A stretch of DNA of 52,782 nucleotides from Escherichia phage vB_EcoM_IntR, in sequence record OM313460. One strand, written 5' to 3'. Both the position numbers and the translations under genes were made by a program. Shown here in pieces: positions 3,754-34,533 of the stretch. Positions within the stretch are counted from its first letter, which is position 1. Every line of letters begins with the position of its first letter. The notes under the pieces are model-generated. The model made no database searches and was not told where the DNA came from. It saw only the letters and a program-made list of their open reading frames with translations.

Positions 3754-4125
3754 AATAGTTACCTTTGTACTAGTTTCCAGGTGTGACTACTGTTACCAAT
3801 AGTCACTAGTTGAAACTACTACTTGTGTTACTATCAACAAGAAACATGTTACCAAATTGTTAAAGAGCAAAAGGTACCATTGACATCTACCAGATGTACC
3901 TGTTGACTGGTTAAGTACTACCTACCTAATCTAAACCATACCAATATCCTTTAGACCAGTTAGACTGGTCACTCAGTCATCACATTCAATAAATATATAA
4001 TAGTCCAATCCCTCTTGATTGTACACCTTATATTTGTAAGTTTATGCAAGTTTTTAGAAATGATAATCACTTGCGATTGAGAGTGGTTCTCGTATGCTAT
4101 TGATATAGTTTCGCATGTAATTACT

Positions 4126-4205
4126 CAACTCAAAATGGTCGGCAGGGGTTATAATCACATAGGGGTGCCACTTAAAGGAGCCGGCGAAATTATTTATAAA
4201 AATAT
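4126..4205. repeat. direct repeat copy 1 (~80 bp) in control region
   Basis: TCAACTCAAAATGGTCGGCAGGGGTTATAAT...AGGGGTGCC...AAGGAGCCGGCGAAATT + AT-rich tail; matches the copy at 4301-4380. Confidence 0.6.
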
Positions 4206-4300
4206 AATTTCAATCTGAAGTATAGACGCTTTGTGTTATAACGGCCGAAGTAGTTCATACGGTAATTGTATCAATCACAATAGTTACCAGCGTAATCATT

Positions 4301-4380
4301 TCAATCGAAATAGGTGCGGCGGGGGGTAATTTCGCAAGGGTGCTACCCACCAGGAGCCAGCGGAATTTTTTTATTTTTTG
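4301..4380. repeat. direct repeat copy 2 (~80 bp) in control region
   Basis: TCAATCGAAATAGGTGCGGCGGGGGGTAATTT...AGGGTGCTACC...CAGGAGCCAGCGGAATT + T-rich tail; shares blocks with copy 1. Confidence 0.6.
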
Positions 4381-4600
4381 GTATTTTCTCCTTATCAGGA
4401 CCAATCATCATCAGAGTGATACGACAGGAGCTAACCTTTTGCCTAACACAATAATAAGTGAAGCCCCTCTAAAATTTTTTTATATTTTTCGGAAATTGTG
4501 TAGACACTCACTAAAAAGTGGTGTACTTTCTCTCCTCCACGCGCTATCATTAATGTGAATCATCAAACGGCCTCACGGTCTCCTACTTGTGGGTAACATT

Positions 4601-5164
4601 ATGAAAATTGTTCAATTAGAACCATATCCGCCTCAATTGGCTATCGTTTGTAGCGAAAAAGAGCATGAAGAGCTCCAAAAGCTGATGGATTTGCCTGATT
4701 TTGGCAACTGGAATGACCGGGAAACGCGTAATGCGTCTACTTTTACGTTCACTCGCGTTAACTATCCGTACCTGTTAATCGTCGTCGAACTGTACCACCC
4801 GGACGACCTGAAGTACAACACCATTTCCCACGAAGGCATTCACGTAATGTCGTCGCTGATGAACTATGTAGGGCTTAAATACGACCCAGAAAACGATGAA
4901 TGGTACGCATATCAGCACGATTTCATCGTAAATGCCATTTGTAAGGCCCATGATGAGTACCTGGAGCGCAAAAAAGCGCCAAAACATAAGCCAAAAATCG
5001 AAACAGGCAATCATCCTGTGATACAGCCACAAGACGTAATGAACTCGCTTTTGACTGACACTACTGGGGACTTTTTAGATGATAAACCTAATCTTTGCAA
5101 TGGGCCAAAATGGGGAATTCGGGTTGTCCCCGGAGTTTATGAAGCATCAGGTGGACTCGTGTAA
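4601..5164 (+). CDS. hypothetical protein with HExxH motif (possible zinc metallopeptidase-like)
   Basis: ATG at 4601 (ORF-track start 4589 is GTG); motif ISHEGIHVM; 3' end overlaps the next gene by 86 nt. Confidence 0.45.
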   Translation: MKIVQLEPYPPQLAIVCSEKEHEELQKLMDLPDFGNWNDRETRNASTFTFTRVNYPYLLIVVELYHPDDLKYNTISHEGIHVMSSLMNYVGLKYDPENDEWYAYQHDFIVNAICKAHDEYLERKKAPKHKPKIETGNHPVIQPQDVMNSLLTDTTGDFLDDKPNLCNGPKWGIRVVPGVYEASGGLV

Positions 5165-5753
5165 GACTATGGAAGAGGTCCGTGCGCTTCCTAAGTCTGG
5201 TTTACCATGGAAGTGTCCGTCAGATATGCTCTTTTTCAGGACTATGACTAATTCAATTGCGTCAGAACCAGGCTATAATGCGTATCAGCAACTACGGGGA
5301 CAGTTCCCAAGTGACCAGTTGCGAAACATGATAGCTGATGTAACGGTAAAAATGGTTGGGCATAGCGTATTGTTAGCCGGTCGTAAAACGTTTATGACTA
5401 TGAGTCTGCCTATGTCAGCCCACCGAATACTGCTGCCGGTATCTCGTCAGATTATGGCTTCAGAAGGCTACAACAATATAGGTGAGTTGGCAGCAGCACT
5501 TGAGACCAGTGGTTCAGATGTTTGGATTGTTGGCGGTGCACAGTTAATACTTGCGGCTCTTGAAGAGCATGCCAAAGGTACACTCCGTGTTGACAACATG
5601 TTTATCAGCACAATCAAAGAAGCAGGTCCAAGTGATATATTAATGGACCGTAGCAAATTAATGATGTACATTGATAGCGACTTCACTTATAATGATGAAT
5701 ATGTTGATAACAAATCTGTGCTGATACAGCGTTACCGGAGTGTACACAAATGA
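5079..5753 (+). CDS. dihydrofolate reductase
   Basis: N-terminus MINLIFAMGQNGEFG, LPW motif, VLLAGRKTF and VWIVGGAQL blocks match DHFR signatures. Confidence 0.7.
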   Translation: MINLIFAMGQNGEFGLSPEFMKHQVDSCKTMEEVRALPKSGLPWKCPSDMLFFRTMTNSIASEPGYNAYQQLRGQFPSDQLRNMIADVTVKMVGHSVLLAGRKTFMTMSLPMSAHRILLPVSRQIMASEGYNNIGELAAALETSGSDVWIVGGAQLILAALEEHAKGTLRVDNMFISTIKEAGPSDILMDRSKLMMYIDSDFTYNDEYVDNKSVLIQRYRSVHK

Positions 5754-21052: not shown

Positions 21053-22192
21053 ATGCCGTTGAATGTAAACCAGATTGTAAACGTTCAACTGAACAACACT
21101 CCAACTGGTATCAGCAAAGGTGACTTCGGTAAGCTGGCTCTTTTAACTCAGGACCCTGGCACTGCTTTTCCTGACAGCGACAACGGACACTATGTTGAAA
21201 TCGGCAGCTACTCTGAAGCCGAGTCTTATTGGGGTGCTGGTTCAGTTGTGCTTGGCGCGTTGAAGATTTTCTTTGCACAATCTCCGCGTCCTCGTTCAGT
21301 AGTTATCGCCTCATGGAACAACACCTCTACTCTGGATGCGGCTATTAAAGCATTCAACGATGTGTACCCTGACTGGTATGTTCTGCGTCCGCTTCCACCT
21401 ACTGGTGAGCTGTCTGACGATGACATCAGTTTGCTGGCGTCAACTGTTGCTGCTTACGATAAAAAACGTTGCAGCTATACAACCACTAAAGCAACTCATA
21501 TTGAAAACAGCGACTCCAACCCGATTAAAGTTCTGGCTGGTAAAGGCTACAACAATATGTGGCTTCAGTATGATAAGAACAACCAACACTATGCAGACAT
21601 TTCTGCTATGGCGCGTGCTCTGTCCGTTAACTTCTCTGGTAACCGCACCACGATTACCATGAAGTTCAAACAAGAGCCTGGCATTACACCGAACAACACT
21701 TTAACGCTTACTGAAGCTAACAAGTGTAAAGCGCTGGGTATTAACTGGTACACCTACTACAGCACCTTTGCTATGCTTGCTGAGGGTACTGTTCTCGGTA
21801 CGTCCAAACCGCCTCGCTTCTGGGATGAAGTACACGGCCTAGACTGGTTCTGTAATGCAGTTCAGACTTACGTCTTCAACTCAATCGCTACGTCACCCAC
21901 GAAGGTGCCGCAGACGAACAAAGGTCACGAGCGCCTTACCGGTGCTGCAGCTGTTGCTTGTCAGCAGGCTGTCGACAACGGCTTGGTTGCACCTGGTATC
22001 TGGTACGGTGATGAGTTTGGTACACTGTCTTATGGTGACCGACTCGAGACAGGTTTCTACATCTACATCCCTGACGTAGATGACCAGCCTCTGGATGAGC
22101 GTGAAGCTCGTCAGGCCGTTGTAATGCAAATCGCGATTAAGCTGGCAGGTGCAATCCATTCCAGCGACATCCTGATTAACTTCACTCGCTAA
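21053..22192 (+). CDS. tail sheath protein (P2 FI / Mu L-like size class)
   Basis: 379-aa ORF followed by tube, chaperone and tape-measure genes; AGAGG RBS. Confidence 0.5.
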   Translation: MPLNVNQIVNVQLNNTPTGISKGDFGKLALLTQDPGTAFPDSDNGHYVEIGSYSEAESYWGAGSVVLGALKIFFAQSPRPRSVVIASWNNTSTLDAAIKAFNDVYPDWYVLRPLPPTGELSDDDISLLASTVAAYDKKRCSYTTTKATHIENSDSNPIKVLAGKGYNNMWLQYDKNNQHYADISAMARALSVNFSGNRTTITMKFKQEPGITPNNTLTLTEANKCKALGINWYTYYSTFAMLAEGTVLGTSKPPRFWDEVHGLDWFCNAVQTYVFNSIATSPTKVPQTNKGHERLTGAAAVACQQAVDNGLVAPGIWYGDEFGTLSYGDRLETGFYIYIPDVDDQPLDEREARQAVVMQIAIKLAGAIHSSDILINFTR

Positions 22193-22203: not shown

Positions 22204-22635
22204 ATGATCATCGATTCTTCTGAATGCGTGTTGAGCCTGAATGGTGTTCAGCTGTCCGACTGGGCAGACGGTGCCGATGTCATTGACGTGCAATGGGTGG
22301 ACCCAGCTTCCACCTATCTTGCAGGTGCTGATGGCGGTGGTATCCAGATTATGAACCCGTCCAAAGCCATTAAGCTGACTATCAAAGTTAAGCAAAGTGG
22401 TCCGGACGCCAAATGGCTTAACGACCAGTACAACCTGCAGCGTAACAACATTCGTGGATTCGTCCCGTTTGTGCTGCAAGCCAAAGACCTGCTAAACCAG
22501 GATTTGGCATGGGGTAAAAAAGGTTACTTTACCGATGGTTCCCCGTGGACTCGTGGTAACGGCCATAACCCGACTACCTTCTCTATTGTGTTCCACCAAG
22601 GTGGTATGCAGTTGACTGAAGGCTTTGACCAGTAA
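22204..22635 (+). CDS. tail tube protein
   Basis: 143-aa ORF between sheath and chaperone genes; AAGGAG RBS. Confidence 0.5.
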   Translation: MIIDSSECVLSLNGVQLSDWADGADVIDVQWVDPASTYLAGADGGGIQIMNPSKAIKLTIKVKQSGPDAKWLNDQYNLQRNNIRGFVPFVLQAKDLLNQDLAWGKKGYFTDGSPWTRGNGHNPTTFSIVFHQGGMQLTEGFDQ

Positions 22636-22653: not shown

Positions 22654-23082
22654 ATGACTGAGCCCAAATCATTTGACATCGACGACGTAACGTACAACAT
22701 GACACTCGCAAACGCGCTGCAAGCCTGGACAGTCCTGAAAAAAGCAGGTAAGCTGTTCAAAGGCATTGGTAACGCGGACATTGTGGGTAAAGACGGCAAA
22801 GTGGACGGTAAGAAAGCAATGCTGGTCCTGTTGGACGCTGTTCTGGAGAACGCAGGTTCTGACGAGATGACAGCTATTGAGGAACTAATCTTCCGCAATA
22901 CTGTTGTTGTAGTTGATGGCAAACCGCGTAAGCTGTCTGACTGTAAAGACCAACACTTCAACGCACATCGTAGCCATATCTTCGGTGTGCTCAAGGAGGG
23001 ATTGGTATATCAGTTCGCGGATTTTTTCAAAGGGAATGGCCTGTCAGGTCTAGCGGGTCTAGCCACGCCCTTGACGAAATAA
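22654..23082 (+). CDS. tail assembly chaperone (short form)
   Basis: 142-aa ORF immediately upstream of the tape-measure gene; AGAGGAAA RBS. Confidence 0.55.
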   Translation: MTEPKSFDIDDVTYNMTLANALQAWTVLKKAGKLFKGIGNADIVGKDGKVDGKKAMLVLLDAVLENAGSDEMTAIEELIFRNTVVVVDGKPRKLSDCKDQHFNAHRSHIFGVLKEGLVYQFADFFKGNGLSGLAGLATPLTK

Positions 23083-23264
23083 AACGCAAGCAACAGTCAG
23101 GGACGCAAGAAACTGACTGGTTTATTTGGCTTCCTATTCTCAAGGGTCATGTGACCCTTGCAGAATTAAAGTCGTCTTACAGCTTGTGTGATTTGTGCGA
23201 CCTGCATATTGCTATTCTGGACTATGCCGAGTTAGAGGAAATCCATGGCGACCATAATCGATAG
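22654..23264 (+). other. tail assembly chaperone, -1 frameshifted long form (predicted)
   Basis: Slippery heptamer T_TTT_TTC at 23022-23028 in the zero frame; the -1 frame stays open from 23025 to a TAG at 23262-23264, overlapping the tape-measure start. Confidence 0.5.
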
Positions 23265-24927
23265 CTTTCTGGTAACGCTTGAGAGTAAAGCCGATAGTGC
23301 AGGCTTTGACCTCTTCGACCAGCTGTCCCGCCGTTTTGTGATTACCCTCGGCGATGTAATCAATCTTGCTGAGCGTGCCGCTGGTGCGCTCGGTAGGATG
23401 TTTGCGCCTGCGTTAGAGGCTGACGTACTCGCCGCCAAGATTAAAGGCTTCGGCTACGACGTCGAATCGACGTGGAAAACGCTGATGGATATGTCTTTGC
23501 AAATGGGTACACCATTTCAAGAGGCACTCGACGGCTTTACTAAACTTAAAGCGTATGGCGTTGACCCGTTAAACGGTTCGCTACAAATGCTCAAAACAAT
23601 CACTGCTGCAACAGGCGGTGATTTGGCACGTACCATTGTTGCGTACGGCCAGGCAACTGCGATGGGTTCATTGCAGGGCCAGGAAAAGAACCAGTTCATT
23701 AACGCCGGTGTTGACATCTGGGGCGCATTGTCCCGTTACACTGGTAAGCAACTCGGCGAGCTTCAGGATATGATGCGGCAGAAGAAAATTACTGCCGACA
23801 TACTGACTAGCGCGCTCAAACAAGAAGCCGAACGGTTAAAACCAATTGCCCACGAAGTGTCACAGACACTCAAAGCGCAGTTAACTAACCTGAGCACAAT
23901 TTGGTATGCTGCTCGTGCTAAGATTACCCAGACCCGAGTATGGGACGAGGTAACTAAAGGCGCGATAAATATGGTTAAGTCACTTACCGCAGTGCTTAAC
24001 GATACCACACTTACTGCAGCATTTAAAAAGTTTGATGAAATTGTATTCAATACAATTGAAAATATAAAACGACTTATCTACGTTATCGGGGATAACTTCC
24101 CGTTAATGGTTGCAATAACCTCATACGCACTGCTGTCACTTATTCCTGTGCTGGCGGCACTTATTCCCGTGCTGACTAAGGTCGGCAATGCCTTTGTGGG
24201 TTTAGCTGCCAAAATACTTATGAACCCGCTTACGTGGATTGTACTTGCTATCGGCGCAGTTATTGCTGTACTCGCTGACCTCGATGATGCTCTGGCAGGA
24301 CGTGAGACAGTTGTTAAGTGGTCAAAAGACGTTGTTGCTGCATGGGGAATTGTCAAGCAGTATATCGTAGTTATTGCAGACTTTATTCTGTCAATATTTG
24401 ACGGCCGCTTATGGAACCGGCTCGGTAACTGGTGGCAAGGTTTCCTTGGTGAAGTTAAGCAAGGCATAGAGCAGATAAAGCTGTGGTTGTCTGAAGCGCT
24501 TTACCAGTTGCCTGGTGGTAAGTTCCTAATGGCATTATTTGGTAAGCTCGATTCTACCCTGGGCTTTGCTGGTAACAAACTTGTGACAGGTGCGGAGGCT
24601 ACTGTCAATGCTGTGTCGCCTACCACTGAACAGGGCGGAAGCTTCTGGAGTAAGGCGCTCAACTGGTCTATGCGTAACTTCAACCCTATTACAGGGGAGA
24701 TGACAGCTGGAGGCCAGGCTATGCAGTCAGCTATAAATACAGCTAAGCAAAACCAACAACAGAACGCAACTGTTATCCATCAGGATAATAGCGTTAAAGT
24801 TGATGCTACTATTACCGGTGTACAAAACCCACAAGAAGTAGGTCGTGAGGTCAATGACCAGGTCAAACAGGCGCAGAAAGAGAATGCTACTGTAAGGGCT
24901 AACAACAAAACGGCGGTAACACAATGA
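23245..24927 (+). CDS. tail tape measure protein
   Basis: 560-aa alpha-helical protein with a central hydrophobic segment; position after the chaperone. Confidence 0.7.
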   Translation: MATIIDSFLVTLESKADSAGFDLFDQLSRRFVITLGDVINLAERAAGALGRMFAPALEADVLAAKIKGFGYDVESTWKTLMDMSLQMGTPFQEALDGFTKLKAYGVDPLNGSLQMLKTITAATGGDLARTIVAYGQATAMGSLQGQEKNQFINAGVDIWGALSRYTGKQLGELQDMMRQKKITADILTSALKQEAERLKPIAHEVSQTLKAQLTNLSTIWYAARAKITQTRVWDEVTKGAINMVKSLTAVLNDTTLTAAFKKFDEIVFNTIENIKRLIYVIGDNFPLMVAITSYALLSLIPVLAALIPVLTKVGNAFVGLAAKILMNPLTWIVLAIGAVIAVLADLDDALAGRETVVKWSKDVVAAWGIVKQYIVVIADFILSIFDGRLWNRLGNWWQGFLGEVKQGIEQIKLWLSEALYQLPGGKFLMALFGKLDSTLGFAGNKLVTGAEATVNAVSPTTEQGGSFWSKALNWSMRNFNPITGEMTAGGQAMQSAINTAKQNQQQNATVIHQDNSVKVDATITGVQNPQEVGREVNDQVKQAQKENATVRANNKTAVTQ

Positions 24928-25820
24928 GTGACATCTTTGCTGGAATTACTGATGCTGCCAATAACTTGTACCAGGACGCCCGTGACAGGCTCATGGGCGA
25001 CGGTACAACCACCTTACGCTTCCGCAACTGCGGAGGCATTAAGATGGATGCTGTCACTAACGAAGAGCATCAGTCTGACCTTGACATCGCTGATAACGAA
25101 CTTGAGTCCGGGGCTAAGGCTTCGGACCATGCTGCTGTACAACCAAAAGTTATTACTGTCACTGGCGTGGTGGTTGGTTATATCGACGAGTCAGTTCAAG
25201 AGTCAACAATTAAGGATGTAACAGGCCTACGGTCTATGGATTTCTTGGATGATATTCAGCTTCCACAGGTAGTGTCTACTGCTCTCGAAGGAACAAGGGA
25301 CTTTGCTGTTAACAAGCTAGCCTCATTCATAGACTGGGGCGGTTTAGACGCTACCATCTCACGCTCTTTAGTTCCATGGCTTCCTGACTTTAGTATAGCT
25401 GAACAGCTTAAGTCTTCGGACAATATGAGGATTGAACAGGTATACCGTACCTTGCTGGATTTACAGAAAAACGTTATCTACTGTGACGTTGACACTGGTA
25501 TCTTCAAGTATACGAATATGCTTTTGAAGTCTGTTCGTGTTGTACAGGAGAAAGATGGTTCAGCGACGTTTACCCTTACGTTCCGTGAAGTCATCGAAGT
25601 GCCGATTGTAGTTACAAACGCTGTAGCGGCTAAGTCAACAGGTCGCCCGGCTAACAACGGTACCAAGAAGAGCGGACGGGCGCAAGGTCAGGGTGATGCT
25701 GTCAGTAAGAAGGACATAAACACAACTACGTCGATTAGCGAGAAACGCGTAAACGATAACCGTGGATTCGGCGTAACGCTTGGTGATATGTTCGGCTTTA
25801 ACCTACGAGGTATTTTCTGA
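24924..25820 (+). CDS. tail/baseplate protein (Mu N-like position)
   Basis: 298-aa ORF between tape measure and baseplate genes; start overlaps upstream stop. Confidence 0.45.
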   Translation: MSDIFAGITDAANNLYQDARDRLMGDGTTTLRFRNCGGIKMDAVTNEEHQSDLDIADNELESGAKASDHAAVQPKVITVTGVVVGYIDESVQESTIKDVTGLRSMDFLDDIQLPQVVSTALEGTRDFAVNKLASFIDWGGLDATISRSLVPWLPDFSIAEQLKSSDNMRIEQVYRTLLDLQKNVIYCDVDTGIFKYTNMLLKSVRVVQEKDGSATFTLTFREVIEVPIVVTNAVAAKSTGRPANNGTKKSGRAQGQGDAVSKKDINTTTSISEKRVNDNRGFGVTLGDMFGFNLRGIF

Positions 25821-26212
25821 TGATACTTACCACAACTGCTTTCCTCGACATTGTAGGTAACGATGGTTCTGGTATTTACGACTTGGAGCCTACCTCTGAA
25901 GGTAAGCAATCAATATCAATTTCTATCGCTGGATATACGTATAACATTGAGTTGTACTATAACACGGTAGGTCAGCTCTGGCAGGCTACAGTGACTGACC
26001 TATCAAGTAATGCTGTACTTTGTTCCAGTTATGCTTTACAATATGGGCGTATTGCTTTTGGTAACTGGGACACGCGTATAGCGTTGCTGGTAAGTGACAA
26101 ATCCTCCAGCCGCATCGGTCCTATGACTACAGATGACATGGGAGGACGTTGCAATGTCTACATCGTCGACAAAACAGCCTACCCGTCAGTTTGGCCGCGC
26201 GTTAAAGCTTGA
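25820..26212 (+). CDS. tail protein (hypothetical)
   Basis: 130-aa ORF, translationally coupled. Confidence 0.4.
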   Translation: MILTTTAFLDIVGNDGSGIYDLEPTSEGKQSISISIAGYTYNIELYYNTVGQLWQATVTDLSSNAVLCSSYALQYGRIAFGNWDTRIALLVSDKSSSRIGPMTTDDMGGRCNVYIVDKTAYPSVWPRVKA

Positions 26213-33755: not shown

Positions 33756-34034
33756 TTAAGCCTGCAGGAAGCCTGGGAACATATCAGCGCGTAAAGCAGC
33801 GCCCTTCAGTAACCAGATTTGGTCTTTAGCCTGTGCAAGCGCATTGTCCTGAGCTACTTGTTTGCCGATGTCTGCATTGAACTCTGCAGGGTCAACACAA
33901 CCAGAAGTACCTACACCTAACTGGAAGCCATCCAGCGTTGCCACACATACAGTTACAGTTGTATTCGGTACCTGCCAGAAATGATACTCCAGTTTATCAA
34001 CAAGAGCATTAACTTCTTTAAAATCTACTTTCAT
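33756..34034 (-). CDS. hypothetical protein
   Basis: 92-aa ORF, AAGGAAAG RBS, start overlaps upstream stop. Confidence 0.5.
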   Translation of the reverse strand: MKVDFKEVNALVDKLEYHFWQVPNTTVTVCVATLDGFQLGVGTSGCVDPAEFNADIGKQVAQDNALAQAKDQIWLLKGAALRADMFPGFLQA

Positions 34035-34258
34035 TATCGCTTTCCTTTCTTCTCGTTATACTGCGCGCAGGATGCACACAATACTGTACCGGGTAAGAGC
34101 TGACGTCGTTTTTCTTCAATGTCTTCCCCACACTGGTAGCACGTCAGCGGGCTTACTCCTGTGTATCTTACTCGGTTCGATAGCGCTGCGTCCCGGGCAA
34201 CTTGTTCAGCTTCAGAAGCCATATCATTAATGTCCGATGTGCGCGTAGTCTCAATCAT
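34034..34258 (-). CDS. DksA/TraR-type C4 zinc-finger protein
   Basis: CYQCGEDI...CASCAQ (CxxC-N17-CxxC), 74 aa; GAGGGA RBS. Confidence 0.55.
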   Translation of the reverse strand: MIETTRTSDINDMASEAEQVARDAALSNRVRYTGVSPLTCYQCGEDIEEKRRQLLPGTVLCASCAQYNEKKGKR

Positions 34259-34533
34259 TATTTTCCCTCTTCTTCACAATACAGGGTTTCTAATTCGTCG
34301 CATAGCTGTTGCGTCCAGCAATCATCCTCACCACGTATCTGGAAGCACAGCACAGGAATATCCTGTCGTAAAATATCGCTCTTGTAAATCTTTTTGGCAA
34401 CAGCTTCTGGTTCTTCCTGGAATATCTTCATAAACCAGTCCAGGCCTGACGTGCAGCCTGAGGCGTCTAGTATCTCCTTCGCCCTTAACTTAAGCGTTTC
34501 ATCTACTTCATACTCTAAACCTATCTTAGACAT
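34258..34533 (-). CDS. hypothetical acidic protein
   Basis: 91-aa ORF translationally coupled to the downstream gene. Confidence 0.45.
   Translation of the reverse strand: MSKIGLEYEVDETLKLRAKEILDASGCTSGLDWFMKIFQEEPEAVAKKIYKSDILRQDIPVLCFQIRGEDDCWTQQLCDELETLYCEEEGK

What the first reader, a model, noticed from the sequence alone, without database searches (positions are those of the whole stretch)
22654..23264. Programmed -1 ribosomal frameshift predicted in the tail assembly chaperone gene
The zero frame contains the slippery heptamer T_TTT_TTC at 23022-23028. From there the -1 frame is open for ~80 codons to a TAG at 23262-23264, overlapping the tape-measure start at 23245, and encodes a protein-like extension (...DWFIWLPILKGHVTLAELKSSYSLCDLCDLHIAILDYAELEE...). 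This is the conserved G/GT (lambda) and E/E+E' (P2) arrangement.
Basis: partly seen in the sequence, partly recalled or inferred. Interest (0 to 1): 0.5.

Follow-up and report, generated by a model that had tools for sequence, protein, structure and literature searches.

The report
Unannotated tail-chaperone frameshift in coliphage swi3
The phage's tail assembly chaperone gene carries a conserved slippery TTTTTTC site that should let a share of ribosomes slip back one base and add a second domain; this trick is well known in long-tailed phages and has simply not been annotated in this phage group.

Summary
The window is Escherichia phage vB_EcoM_swi3 (MT768059.1, Rosemountvirus).

- **Gene:** 22654-23082 (142 aa) is a Pfam Phage_TAC_9 tail assembly chaperone (E 4.5e-33). 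It lies between the tube gene and the tape-measure gene.
- **Site and extension:** T_TTT_TTC at 23022-23028 is in phase. The -1 frame then runs 78 codons to TAG 23262-23264, giving a 203-aa fusion.
- **Conservation:** In 58 distinct homologous loci (13 clusters at 70% identity), the base before the run is always T and the P-site codon is always TTT. A control Phe codon in the same genes flips freely (TTT 33, TTC 25).
- **Coding evidence:** The extension is under purifying selection (dN/dS 0.08-0.25). In most loci, including the window, it has no start codon ahead of its conserved DWFxWxP…L.EL…Y.L.DL..H core.
- **Site pinned:** In 23 loci a -1-frame TGA abuts the T run.
- **Known relatives:** The Aaphi23 homolog is already annotated as a joined ORF54-54'. 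P2 E/E+E' shifts at TTTTTTG.

No convincing stimulatory hairpin or correctly spaced SD-like sequence was found.

Verdict: an ordinary, unannotated new member of the known G/GT-type frameshift. Nobody has shown the fusion product experimentally in this family. Interest is low.

The parts
22654..23082 (+). Tail assembly chaperone gene, zero frame ('G-like', 142 aa). It is annotated only as a hypothetical protein (QNR52382.1).
   Evidence: Pfam PF10876 Phage_TAC_9 E 4.5e-33 and PF21822 Phage_TAC_15 E 1.2e-16. phrog_6419 and phrog_1613 'tail assembly chaperone'. GenBank annotation seen.
23022..23028 (+). Slippery heptamer T_TTT_TTC. The last base of Asp123 (GAT) is followed by Phe124 (TTT, P site) and Phe125 (TTC, A site).
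   Evidence: Sequence and phase. Conserved in phase in 58/58 distinct homologs: the base before the run is always T (GAT 56, GGT 2), the P-site codon is TTT in 58, and the A-site codon is TTC 29, TTT 28, TTG 1.
23028..23264 (+). -1 frame extension ('T-like'): 78 codons plus TAG. It is reached only by slipping back one base, so nt 23028 is read twice. The predicted fusion is join(22654..23028,23028..23264), 203 aa.
   Evidence: Translation. dN/dS 0.08-0.25 in the part beyond the G stop. tblastn finds both pieces in two frames in every relative.
23028..23114 (+). Poorly conserved linker of the extension, about 29 aa. The first 18 codons overlap the zero-frame C-terminal tail of the short product.
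   Evidence: Alignment A2.
23115..23225 (+). Conserved core of the extension: DWFIWLPILKGHVTLAELKSSYSLCDLCDLHIAILDY. Invariant residues are D30, W31, P36, L47, L53 and H60 of the extension.
   Evidence: Alignment A2. It matches phrog_4364 ('unknown function', small ORFs) in 11 of 14 members, best E 1.9e-8. There is no Pfam family.
23151..23264 (+). 37-codon GTG ORF that some related records annotate as a separate gene (for example BP63_35). It is probably a fragment of the extension, not a gene.
   Evidence: The GTG lies 12 codons after the invariant D-W of the core and is not conserved: it is ATC in the S144 lineage. A short SD-like AAGGG sits only 4 nt upstream (sequence; spacing is my reading).
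22993..23000 (+). SD-like AAGGAGGG upstream of the heptamer. It is a possible stimulator, but this is unsupported.
   Evidence: [quoted passage not shown] The Gly codon there is nevertheless GGG or GGA in 39 of 58 loci, against 16% background.
23038..23059 (+). Weak predicted hairpin 9 nt after the heptamer: 7 pairs, 3 of them G-U. It is not supported as a stimulator.
   Evidence: z-score -1.15 against shuffles. No common structure across lineages. The stem never varies in close relatives, so it is uninformative.
22204..22635 (+). Tail tube gene (context).
   Evidence: phrog_280 E 5e-30. PF11681 is just below its cutoff. The S144 homolog is annotated as a putative tube protein.
21053..22192 (+). 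Tail sheath gene (context).
   Evidence: phrog_205 tail sheath E 1.6e-93 and PF11863 DUF3383 E 4e-72.
23245..24927 (+). Tape measure protein gene (context). Its start overlaps the end of the extension by 20 nt.
   Evidence: PF20155 TMP_3 E 1.5e-20. phrog_29251 matches over the full length.

Best explanation
**Mechanism.** Gene 22654-23082 encodes the tail assembly chaperone of a contractile-tailed phage. Most ribosomes read it straight through and make the 142-aa short form. A minority slip when the two tRNA-Phe occupy UUU (P site) and UUC (A site) of U_UUU_UUC at 23022-23028. Both tRNAs re-pair one base back on UUU UUU, and decoding resumes at CAA (23028). This gives a 203-aa long form, ...ADFF-QREW..., that ends at TAG 23262-23264.

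**Function, by analogy with lambda G/GT and P2 E/E+E'.** The shared N-terminal chaperone part would coat the tape measure protein. The -1-encoded C-terminal core (DWFxWxP...L.EL...Y.L.DL..H) would recruit the tube protein. The slip frequency would set a fixed short:long ratio, and neither form would end up in the virion.

**Shown here:** gene identity, site, phase, the open frame, coding constraint on the extension, and deep conservation of the site.

**Inferred:** that slipping happens at all, that it is ribosomal, its frequency, and the binding partners.
For: 1. **TAC identity and position.** Pfam Phage_TAC_9 E 4.5e-33; gene order is sheath, tube, TAC, TMP.

2. **Heptamer in phase, 78 open -1 codons**. 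It is the only such case in the genome that is not explained by a downstream annotated gene, and the only shift-prone motif in the permissible window.

3. **Conservation beyond what the protein requires.** Across 58 distinct loci in 13 clusters at 70% identity:
   - The codon before the run is GAT 56 or GGT 2, never GAC. GAC makes up 43% of the other Asp codons in the same genes.
   - The P-site codon is TTT in 58 of 58. Other Phe codons in these genes are TTT 131 and TTC 124. The invariant Phe of the HFN motif is TTT 33 and TTC 25.
   - The Z position varies freely: C 29, T 28, G 1.
   - The codons just upstream vary synonymously.

4. **Shift pinned to the T run.** In 23 of the 58 loci a -1-frame stop (GC-TGA-TTT) abuts the run, so the frames can only be joined at or after it.

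5. **The extension is coding.** dN/dS is 0.08-0.25, against 0.06-0.14 for the chaperone part. A conserved core is shared with Pasteurella, Aggregatibacter, Proteus and Erwinia phages at 27-37% identity.

6. **No ATG, GTG or TTG in the -1 frame ahead of the conserved core**, in the window and in most loci.

7. **Precedent.** Aaphi23 ORF54-54' is annotated as a two-piece CDS whose length fits a -1 shift. P2 E/E+E' shifts at an in-phase T_TTT_TTG, annotated in NC_001895 (PMC3091744).

8. **Motif efficiency.** H_HH.U_UU.Y heptamers are among the most efficient motifs in E. coli. U_UU.U_UU.C gives more than 0.1% shifting even without stimulators (PMC4066793).

9. **Virion proteomics.** The TAC homolog gp22 of phage S144 was not among the proteins found by virion mass spectrometry, while gp20, gp21 and gp23 were (PMC7432712).
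Against: - No experimental evidence exists for the fusion protein in this phage or in any member of this TAC family. The Aaphi23 join may itself be an inference.
- No significant downstream structure: z -1.15 and -1.34, with no fold shared between lineages.
- The SD-like element lies 23 nt upstream, outside the proven 6-17 nt range (PMC4066793). Efficiency may therefore be low, and it is unknown.
- A T6-T7 run is also the kind of sequence where RNA polymerase can stutter. Sequence analysis cannot fully separate the two routes to the same frame.
Confidence: 0.86

Rival explanations
1. Transcriptional slippage. RNA polymerase adds one extra U at the T6 run (T7 in half of the relatives). Standard translation of that minority mRNA then reads into the same -1 frame, giving ...ADFFFQREW... 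with one extra Phe.
For: The site is a homopolymer run. The requirement for T before TTT lengthens the run as well as completing the heptamer. No ribosomal stimulator was found. A non-translational mechanism has been proposed for the TACs of T4-like phages (title of Vladimirov et al. 2022, cited in PMC12846349; I have not read it).
Against: - Efficient slippage by bacterial RNA polymerase is described for runs of 9 A or T (PMC5009743). Here the run is 6 or 7 and never longer in 58 loci.
- The seventh position shows no preference for T (C 29, T 28, G 1). That fits a free Z position in X_XXY_YYZ and does not fit selection for a longer run.
- P2's in-phase TTTTTTG is annotated and described as a -1 translational frameshift (PMC3091744).
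Confidence: 0.07
2. The downstream frame is a separate small gene. This is the reading in BP63, KE24, vB_SenM-1, SOI901 and KE25, where a 37-45-codon ORF is annotated. It would be translated from its own start (GTG 23151 in this window), with no recoding.
For: Gene callers annotate such an ORF in several records. phrog_4364 collects such small ORFs. A short SD-like AAGGG sits 4 nt before the GTG (sequence; spacing is my reading).
Against: - The candidate start lies 12 codons inside the conserved core, after the invariant D, W and P.
- Start positions are not conserved between lineages, and one lineage has no start codon anywhere in the -1 frame.
- Purifying selection and amino-acid conservation extend upstream of every candidate start.
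- The -1 frame stays open back to the heptamer in all loci and stops exactly there in 23 of them.
Confidence: 0.04
3. Chance or relic. The heptamer and the open -1 frame have no function, and only the 142-aa protein is made.
For: Taken alone, one heptamer with a long open -1 frame somewhere in a 53-kb genome is not very improbable. The expectation is about 0.3, from 19 heptamers times 1.5% of positions.
Against: - The site, its phase and the extension are conserved in 13 divergent clusters.
- The six T's are under synonymous constraint while a control Phe codon flips freely.
- dN/dS of the extension is far below 1.
Confidence: 0.02

Closest known systems
Haemophilus/Aggregatibacter phage Aaphi23 ORF54 / ORF54-54' (NC_004827, YP_003960.1)
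   Same: It is a true homolog: 43-44% identity in the chaperone part and the same conserved core in the extension. It has the same gene order (sheath, tube, TAC, TMP). An in-phase T_TTT_TTT sits at the homologous codons. The CDS is already annotated as a two-piece join whose length fits a -1 shift.
   Different: It is a temperate phage of Pasteurellaceae. The Z base is T rather than C. The linker differs, and the tape measure is longer.
Phage P2 E / E+E' (NC_001895; Christie et al. 2002, as cited in PMC3091744)
   Same: - It is a contractile-tailed phage, and the TAC gene lies between the tube gene (FII) and the tape measure gene (T).
- The -1 shift is at an in-phase T-run heptamer, GGT TTT TTG. 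That is the same phase and preceding-T rule as here, and the same heptamer as in the Proteus phage ZX7 homolog.
- No downstream hairpin is known.
- The end of the extension overlaps the tape-measure start (PMC3091744).
   Different: - The proteins are smaller: 91 and 142 aa, against 142 and 203 aa here.
- No detectable sequence relation: BLASTP E at least 0.57, hhalign probability 0.5% for the chaperone part and 2.7% for the extension.
- Pfam places this gene only in Phage_TAC_9 and Phage_TAC_15.
Phage lambda G / GT (Levin et al. 1993; Xu et al. 2004, 2013, 2014, as summarised in PMC5009743)
   Same: [quoted passage not shown] The functional model is that G binds the tape measure, T binds the tube subunit, the ratio is fixed, and both are absent from virions.
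   Different: - Lambda is a siphovirus.
- Its heptamer is G_GGA_AAG, which uses tRNA-Lys.
- Its T domain is about 140 aa, against 78 aa here.
- No detectable sequence relation.
Pakpunavirus/Vandenendeviridae TAC frameshift (phage Adele, PMC12846349)
   Same: This is a recent re-annotation of the same sort. A 'hypothetical' ORF between the TAC and TMP genes of myoviruses was shown by comparative genomics to be the -1 extension, with an invariant poly-T motif (GTTTTT).
   Different: It concerns a different phage family. I did not compare its proteins or its motif phase with this locus.

Membership tests
Pfam PF10876 Phage_TAC_9 (tail assembly chaperone) | Whole-protein score above the curated gathering cutoff | tested here: met
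   114.7 bits against a cutoff of 25, E 4.5e-33, covering residues 8-131 of 142. Phage_TAC_15 also scores 61.8 bits against a cutoff of 22.
G/GT-type programmed -1 frameshift of long-tailed phage tail assembly chaperones (Xu et al. 2004) | The gene lies between the major tail/tube gene and the tape measure gene | tested here: met
   Tube 22204-22635, TAC 22654-23082, TMP 23245-24927.
G/GT-type programmed -1 frameshift of long-tailed phage tail assembly chaperones (Xu et al. 2004) | A second ORF overlaps the 3' end in the -1 frame, lacks its own start, and runs to about the tape measure start | tested here: met
   The -1 frame is open 22974-23264. There is no ATG, GTG or TTG before the conserved core. 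It overlaps the TMP ATG by 20 nt.
G/GT-type programmed -1 frameshift of long-tailed phage tail assembly chaperones (Xu et al. 2004) | An in-phase slippery sequence in the overlap, conserved among relatives | tested here: met
   T_TTT_TTC is in phase. T_TTT_TTN is present in 58 of 58 distinct loci and 13 of 13 clusters, with synonymous constraint limited to the T run.
G/GT-type programmed -1 frameshift of long-tailed phage tail assembly chaperones (Xu et al. 2004) | The extension is a protein under selection | tested here: met
   dN/dS 0.08-0.25 in the non-overlapping part. The core has six invariant residues across 14 diverse sequences.
G/GT-type programmed -1 frameshift of long-tailed phage tail assembly chaperones (Xu et al. 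2004) | Both the short and the frameshifted product are made in vivo, at a set ratio | not testable with these tools
   This needs proteomics or a reporter assay. No such data were found for Rosemountvirus or Loughboroughvirus.
G/GT-type programmed -1 frameshift of long-tailed phage tail assembly chaperones (Xu et al. 2004) | The products act in assembly and are absent from the mature virion | tested here: inconclusive
   Literature only, for the 83%-identical homolog. S144 virion ESI-MS/MS lists gp20-21 and gp23 but not gp22 (PMC7432712). This is absence of evidence, and it was not tested for swi3.
-1 PRF signal with a stimulatory element (dnaX / IS911 / IS3 type) | [quoted passage not shown] | tested here: not met
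   The nearest SD-like element, AAGGAGGG 22993-23000, ends 23 nt before that base (criterion from PMC4066793).
-1 PRF signal with a stimulatory element (dnaX / IS911 / IS3 type) | A stable, conserved downstream hairpin or pseudoknot | tested here: not met
   Fold energies are not distinguishable from shuffles (z -1.15 and -1.34). Predicted structures differ between lineages. Lambda and P2 also lack such a structure, so this does not argue against the frameshift.
Lambda gpG/gpT and P2 gpE/E' protein families | Detectable sequence or profile similarity | tested here: not met
   BLASTP E at least 0.57. hhalign probabilities 0.2-2.7%. Pfam hits are only TAC_9 and TAC_15.

The most novel reading that the evidence does not exclude
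The frameshift may be tuned by an unusually distant upstream element. The conserved Gly codon 7 codons before the site is GGG or GGA in 39 of 58 loci, against 16% background. GGG is the majority codon in 8 of 13 clusters, against 12.5% background. Together with the preceding Glu codon this makes an SD-like GAGGGG or AGGAGGG about 20-23 nt 5' of the heptamer. That is beyond the 6-17 nt range known to stimulate -1 shifting. If real, it could act through pausing of the translating or a trailing ribosome, or the product could arise partly through polymerase stuttering rather than tRNA slippage.
Probability: 0.1. Interest if true: 0.4.

Novelty: new member of a known kind. Interest (0 to 1): 0.15.

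Why it matters
The value is mainly in annotation.

- In swi3, and in all eight Rosemountvirus, Loughboroughvirus and related records inspected, the chaperone is a 'hypothetical protein' or a single 'chaperone'. The 162-nt stretch 23083-23244 is either left as intergenic or called as a 37-45-codon orphan gene.
- It should be annotated as join(22654..23028,23028..23264) with ribosomal_slippage.
- These phages are being developed against Salmonella and E. coli. Correct tail-module annotation helps engineering, because recoding or codon-optimising the T run would silently abolish the long chaperone form.

Scientifically, the locus adds one more deeply conserved U_UUU_UUY site to the catalogue of tail-chaperone frameshifts. 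It also defines a compact T-type core (about 37 aa) that has no Pfam family. It opens no new question.

Tried and rejected
- **Downstream stimulatory structure.** I folded 23029-23110 and 22980-23160 and 70 nt after the site in 16 diverse homologs. Nothing was significant or shared, so I rejected it.
- **Upstream SD stimulator.** An SD-like element is present but 23 nt away. I rejected it as a classical stimulator and kept it as an unexplained codon-bias signal.
- **Promoter or terminator in the 'intergenic' gap.** None found.
- **Structured RNA or tRNA explanation for the gap.** No Rfam hit and no tRNA anywhere in the window.
- **Independent small gene at GTG 23151.** Rejected, because the start is not conserved and it truncates the conserved core.
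- **Homology to lambda G/T or P2 E/E'.** Not detectable.
- **Solved-structure relatives of the chaperone.** Only spurious PDB hits, E at least 0.0014.
- **Pfam family for the extension.** None.
- **Literature search for a prior report of this frameshift in Rosemountvirus, Loughboroughvirus or swi3.** None found. The Aaphi23 genome paper could not be read.
- **Not run.** I did not run the large protein-database searches or structure prediction. The verdict did not depend on them.

Full report
**Identity of the window.** A tblastn search with the predicted fusion protein and a megablast search of the locus both show that the window is Escherichia phage vB_EcoM_swi3, MT768059.1. This is a 52,782-bp myovirus of the genus Rosemountvirus (species BP63), and the coordinates are identical. 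In that record the gene at 22654-23082 is a 'hypothetical protein'. Nothing is annotated between 23083 and 23244, and no joined CDS exists. The paper describing swi3 mentions neither a chaperone nor a frameshift (PMC8317433).

**Checking the observation.**
- ATG 22654 opens a 142-codon ORF ending at TAA 23080-23082.
- Codons 123-125 are GAT TTT TTC, so T_TTT_TTC at 23022-23028 is an in-phase X_XXY_YYZ heptamer.
- The -1 frame is open from 22974 to TAG 23262-23264. After a slip it encodes 78 residues (QREWPVRSSG...DWFIWLPILKGHVTLAELKSSYSLCDLCDLHIAILDYAELEEIHGDHNR).
- It ends 20 nt inside the next gene, whose ATG is at 23245.
- The predicted long product, join(22654..23028,23028..23264), is 203 aa.

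**Is it more than chance?**
- The 74 genes of the window (73 scored, 16,050 codons) hold 19 in-phase X_XXY_YYZ heptamers.
- The median open -1 run after any codon is 6 codons.
- Only two heptamers are followed by 50 or more open -1 codons. One is this site. The other, at 34267-34261 on the minus strand, simply reads into the next annotated gene.
- Within the 109 nt where the two frames could be joined (22974-23082), the heptamer is the only motif of a class that is shift-prone in E. coli. The other in-phase tetramers are G_GGA and G_GGT (hierarchy A_AA.G > U_UU.Y > C_CC.Y > A_AA.A from PMC4066793).

**What the gene is.**
- The 142-aa protein matches Pfam Phage_TAC_9 (PF10876, 114.7 bits against a cutoff of 25, E 4.5e-33) and Phage_TAC_15.
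- Upstream lie the sheath gene (phrog_205, E 1.6e-93) and the tube gene (phrog_280).
- Downstream lies the tape measure gene (Pfam TMP_3; phrog_29251 over its full length).
- This is the canonical position of a tail assembly chaperone.
- In the 83%-identical phage S144, the authors called the homolog a chaperone. Their virion mass spectrometry lists gp20, gp21 and gp23 but not gp22 (PMC7432712).

**Comparative test of the frameshift.**
- tblastn with the fusion protein finds two pieces in two frames in every related record. These include Pasteurella Pmp2, Aggregatibacter S1249/Aaphi23, Erwinia LS-2018a and Proteus phages at 34-44% identity.
- I fetched 12 annotated loci and 80 viral-contig loci. 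These reduce to 58 distinct sequences in 13 clusters at 70% protein identity.
- Every one has a T-run heptamer at the homologous codons and in the same phase.
- The codon before the run ends in T: GAT 56, GGT 2, never GAC. GAC makes up 43% of the other Asp codons in these genes.
- The P-site codon is TTT in 58 of 58.
- The third position of the A-site codon is free: TTC 29, TTT 28, TTG 1.
- As a control, the invariant Phe of the conserved HFN motif in the same genes is TTT 33 and TTC 25. It splits roughly evenly among the 13 clusters.
- The Ala and Phe codons immediately upstream of the site also vary synonymously.
- The nucleotide constraint is therefore confined to exactly the six T's that tandem tRNA slippage requires.
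- In 23 of the 58 loci, including Proteus phage ZX7, L090 and L092, a -1-frame stop (GC-TGA-TTT) abuts the run. The frames can then be joined only at or after the heptamer.
- One locus (L022) has a 1-nt indel just after the site that moves the extension into the +1 frame. This is probably an assembly error or a decayed prophage.

**The extension is a protein and not a separate gene.**
- In the part downstream of the zero-frame stop, which has no dual coding, dN/dS against five increasingly distant relatives is 0.08-0.25. The chaperone part gives 0.06-0.14.
- An alignment of 14 diverse extensions shows a variable linker of about 29 residues. A conserved core follows, with invariant D30, W31, P36, L47, L53 and H60.
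- The core has no Pfam family. It matches phrog_4364, a family of small ORFs of 'unknown function', in 11 of 14 members. These small ORFs are evidently T-type extensions that gene callers annotated on their own.
- In the window, and in most loci, there is no ATG, GTG or TTG in the -1 frame ahead of the core.
- The first candidate here, GTG 23151, is annotated as a 37-codon gene in BP63, KE24 and vB_SenM-1. It lies 12 codons after the invariant Asp and is replaced by ATC in the S144 lineage.
- No promoter-like or terminator-like site falls in the 23083-23244 gap, and there is no Rfam or tRNA hit anywhere in the window.

**Mechanism.**
- The best-supported reading is tandem -1 slippage of two tRNA-Phe on U_UUU_UUC.
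- H_HH.U_UU.Y heptamers are among the most efficient motifs in E. coli. U_UU.U_UU.C exceeds 0.1% shifting even without stimulators (PMC4066793).
- I found no convincing stimulator. The hairpin 9 nt downstream (23038-23059, 7 pairs including 3 G-U) is not better than shuffles (z -1.15). Predicted folds differ between lineages.
[quoted passage not shown] That is outside the 6-17 nt window shown to stimulate.
- Curiously, the Gly codon in that element is GGG or GGA in 39 of 58 loci, against 16% background. GGG is the majority codon in 8 of 13 clusters. I leave this unexplained.
- Lack of a stimulator is normal for this class. P2 has no hairpin (PMC3091744), and low-level shifting is what the lambda model requires (PMC5009743).

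**Rivals.**
- *Transcriptional slippage* would reach the same frame with one extra Phe. However, efficient slippage by bacterial polymerase is described for runs of 9 A or T (PMC5009743). The run here is 6-7, never longer, and the seventh position shows no preference for T.
- *An independent small gene* is contradicted by the missing or unconserved starts and by conservation upstream of them.
- *Chance* is contradicted by the conservation pattern.

**Comparison with known systems.**
- The closest known case is the true homolog in phage Aaphi23. RefSeq already carries a two-piece CDS there, ORF54-54', whose 584-nt span fits a -1 shift. An in-phase T_TTT_TTT lies at the homologous codons.
- P2 E/E+E' is the closest characterised analogue. 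It is a contractile-tailed phage with the same gene position and GGT TTT TTG in the same phase, and the site is annotated in NC_001895 (PMC3091744).
- Lambda G/GT supplies the functional model but uses G_GGA_AAG (PMC5009743).
- No sequence or profile similarity to the P2 or lambda proteins is detectable: BLASTP E at least 0.57 and hhalign probability at most 2.7%.
- The only hint is a faint resemblance between the cores, WFIWLPILKGHVTLAELKS here and IFHWPPSELYPMSLTELIT in P2 E'.
- A 2025 paper made the same kind of re-annotation for Pakpunavirus myoviruses with a conserved poly-T motif (PMC12846349).

**Verdict.**
- This is a new, unannotated member of a well-known kind. None of the eight Rosemountvirus, Loughboroughvirus and related records inspected annotates the join. 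I found no paper in the searchable library reporting it for these genera.
- The actual production of the 203-aa form, its frequency and its binding partners remain inferred.
- Interest is low. The practical value is correcting the annotation and warning against synonymous recoding of the T run.

Noticed in passing
window 25820-26212 (+): A 130-aa ORF between the gene downstream of the tape measure and the baseplate hub gene is missing from the GenBank annotation of swi3. It matches phrog_349 'virion structural protein' (E 3.2e-14), so it is very likely a real gene.
   Followed up: partly
window 4601-5164 (+): The annotated CDS 4601-5086 does not end at a stop codon. The ORF actually runs to 5164, overlapping the next gene (5079-5753) by 86 nt. 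This looks like an annotation error. The protein matches phrog_1365, of unknown function.
   Followed up: partly
window 34267-34261 (- strand): An in-phase G_GGA_AAA heptamer lies immediately before the stop codon of the 91-aa gene 34258-34533. A -1 slip there would fuse that gene to the downstream DksA-like zinc-finger gene 34034-34258. The two genes overlap by one base, so this is probably coincidence. I did not test conservation.
   Followed up: no
window 22993-23001 (+) and homologous positions in L004-L092: The SD-like AAGGAGGG lies 23 nt upstream of the slip site. The conserved Gly codon there is GGG or GGA in 39 of 58 loci, against 16% of other Gly codons in the same genes, and GGG is the majority codon in 8 of 13 clusters. 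This is a synonymous bias with no established explanation at this spacing.
   Followed up: partly
window 23118-23174 compared with L096 (P2 E'): There is a faint motif resemblance between the core of the extension (WFIWLPILKGHVTLAELKS) and P2 E' (IFHWPPSELYPMSLTELIT). hhalign gives E 0.017 and probability 2.7%, which is not significant. It may hint at a shared T-type motif.
   Followed up: partly
PP583539.1 (hit H30/H38): A record named 'Listeria phage 220426122051', with host Listeria monocytogenes, is 97.9% identical to this enterobacterial Rosemountvirus locus. A mislabelled host or a contaminant seems likely.
   Followed up: no
L022 (IMGVR_UViG_2843849862_000001), about 1554-1800: This is the only homolog in which the arrangement is broken. 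A 1-nt indel in the G-run just after T_TTT_TTT truncates the zero frame and puts the conserved extension in the +1 frame. It is probably an assembly error or a decaying prophage.
   Followed up: partly
window 3754-4600: An 847-nt stretch has no annotated gene. It lies between the leftward and rightward gene blocks and is probably a divergent regulatory region. The only ORF of at least 50 aa lying wholly inside it is a 72-aa GTG ORF at 4340-4558.
   Followed up: no
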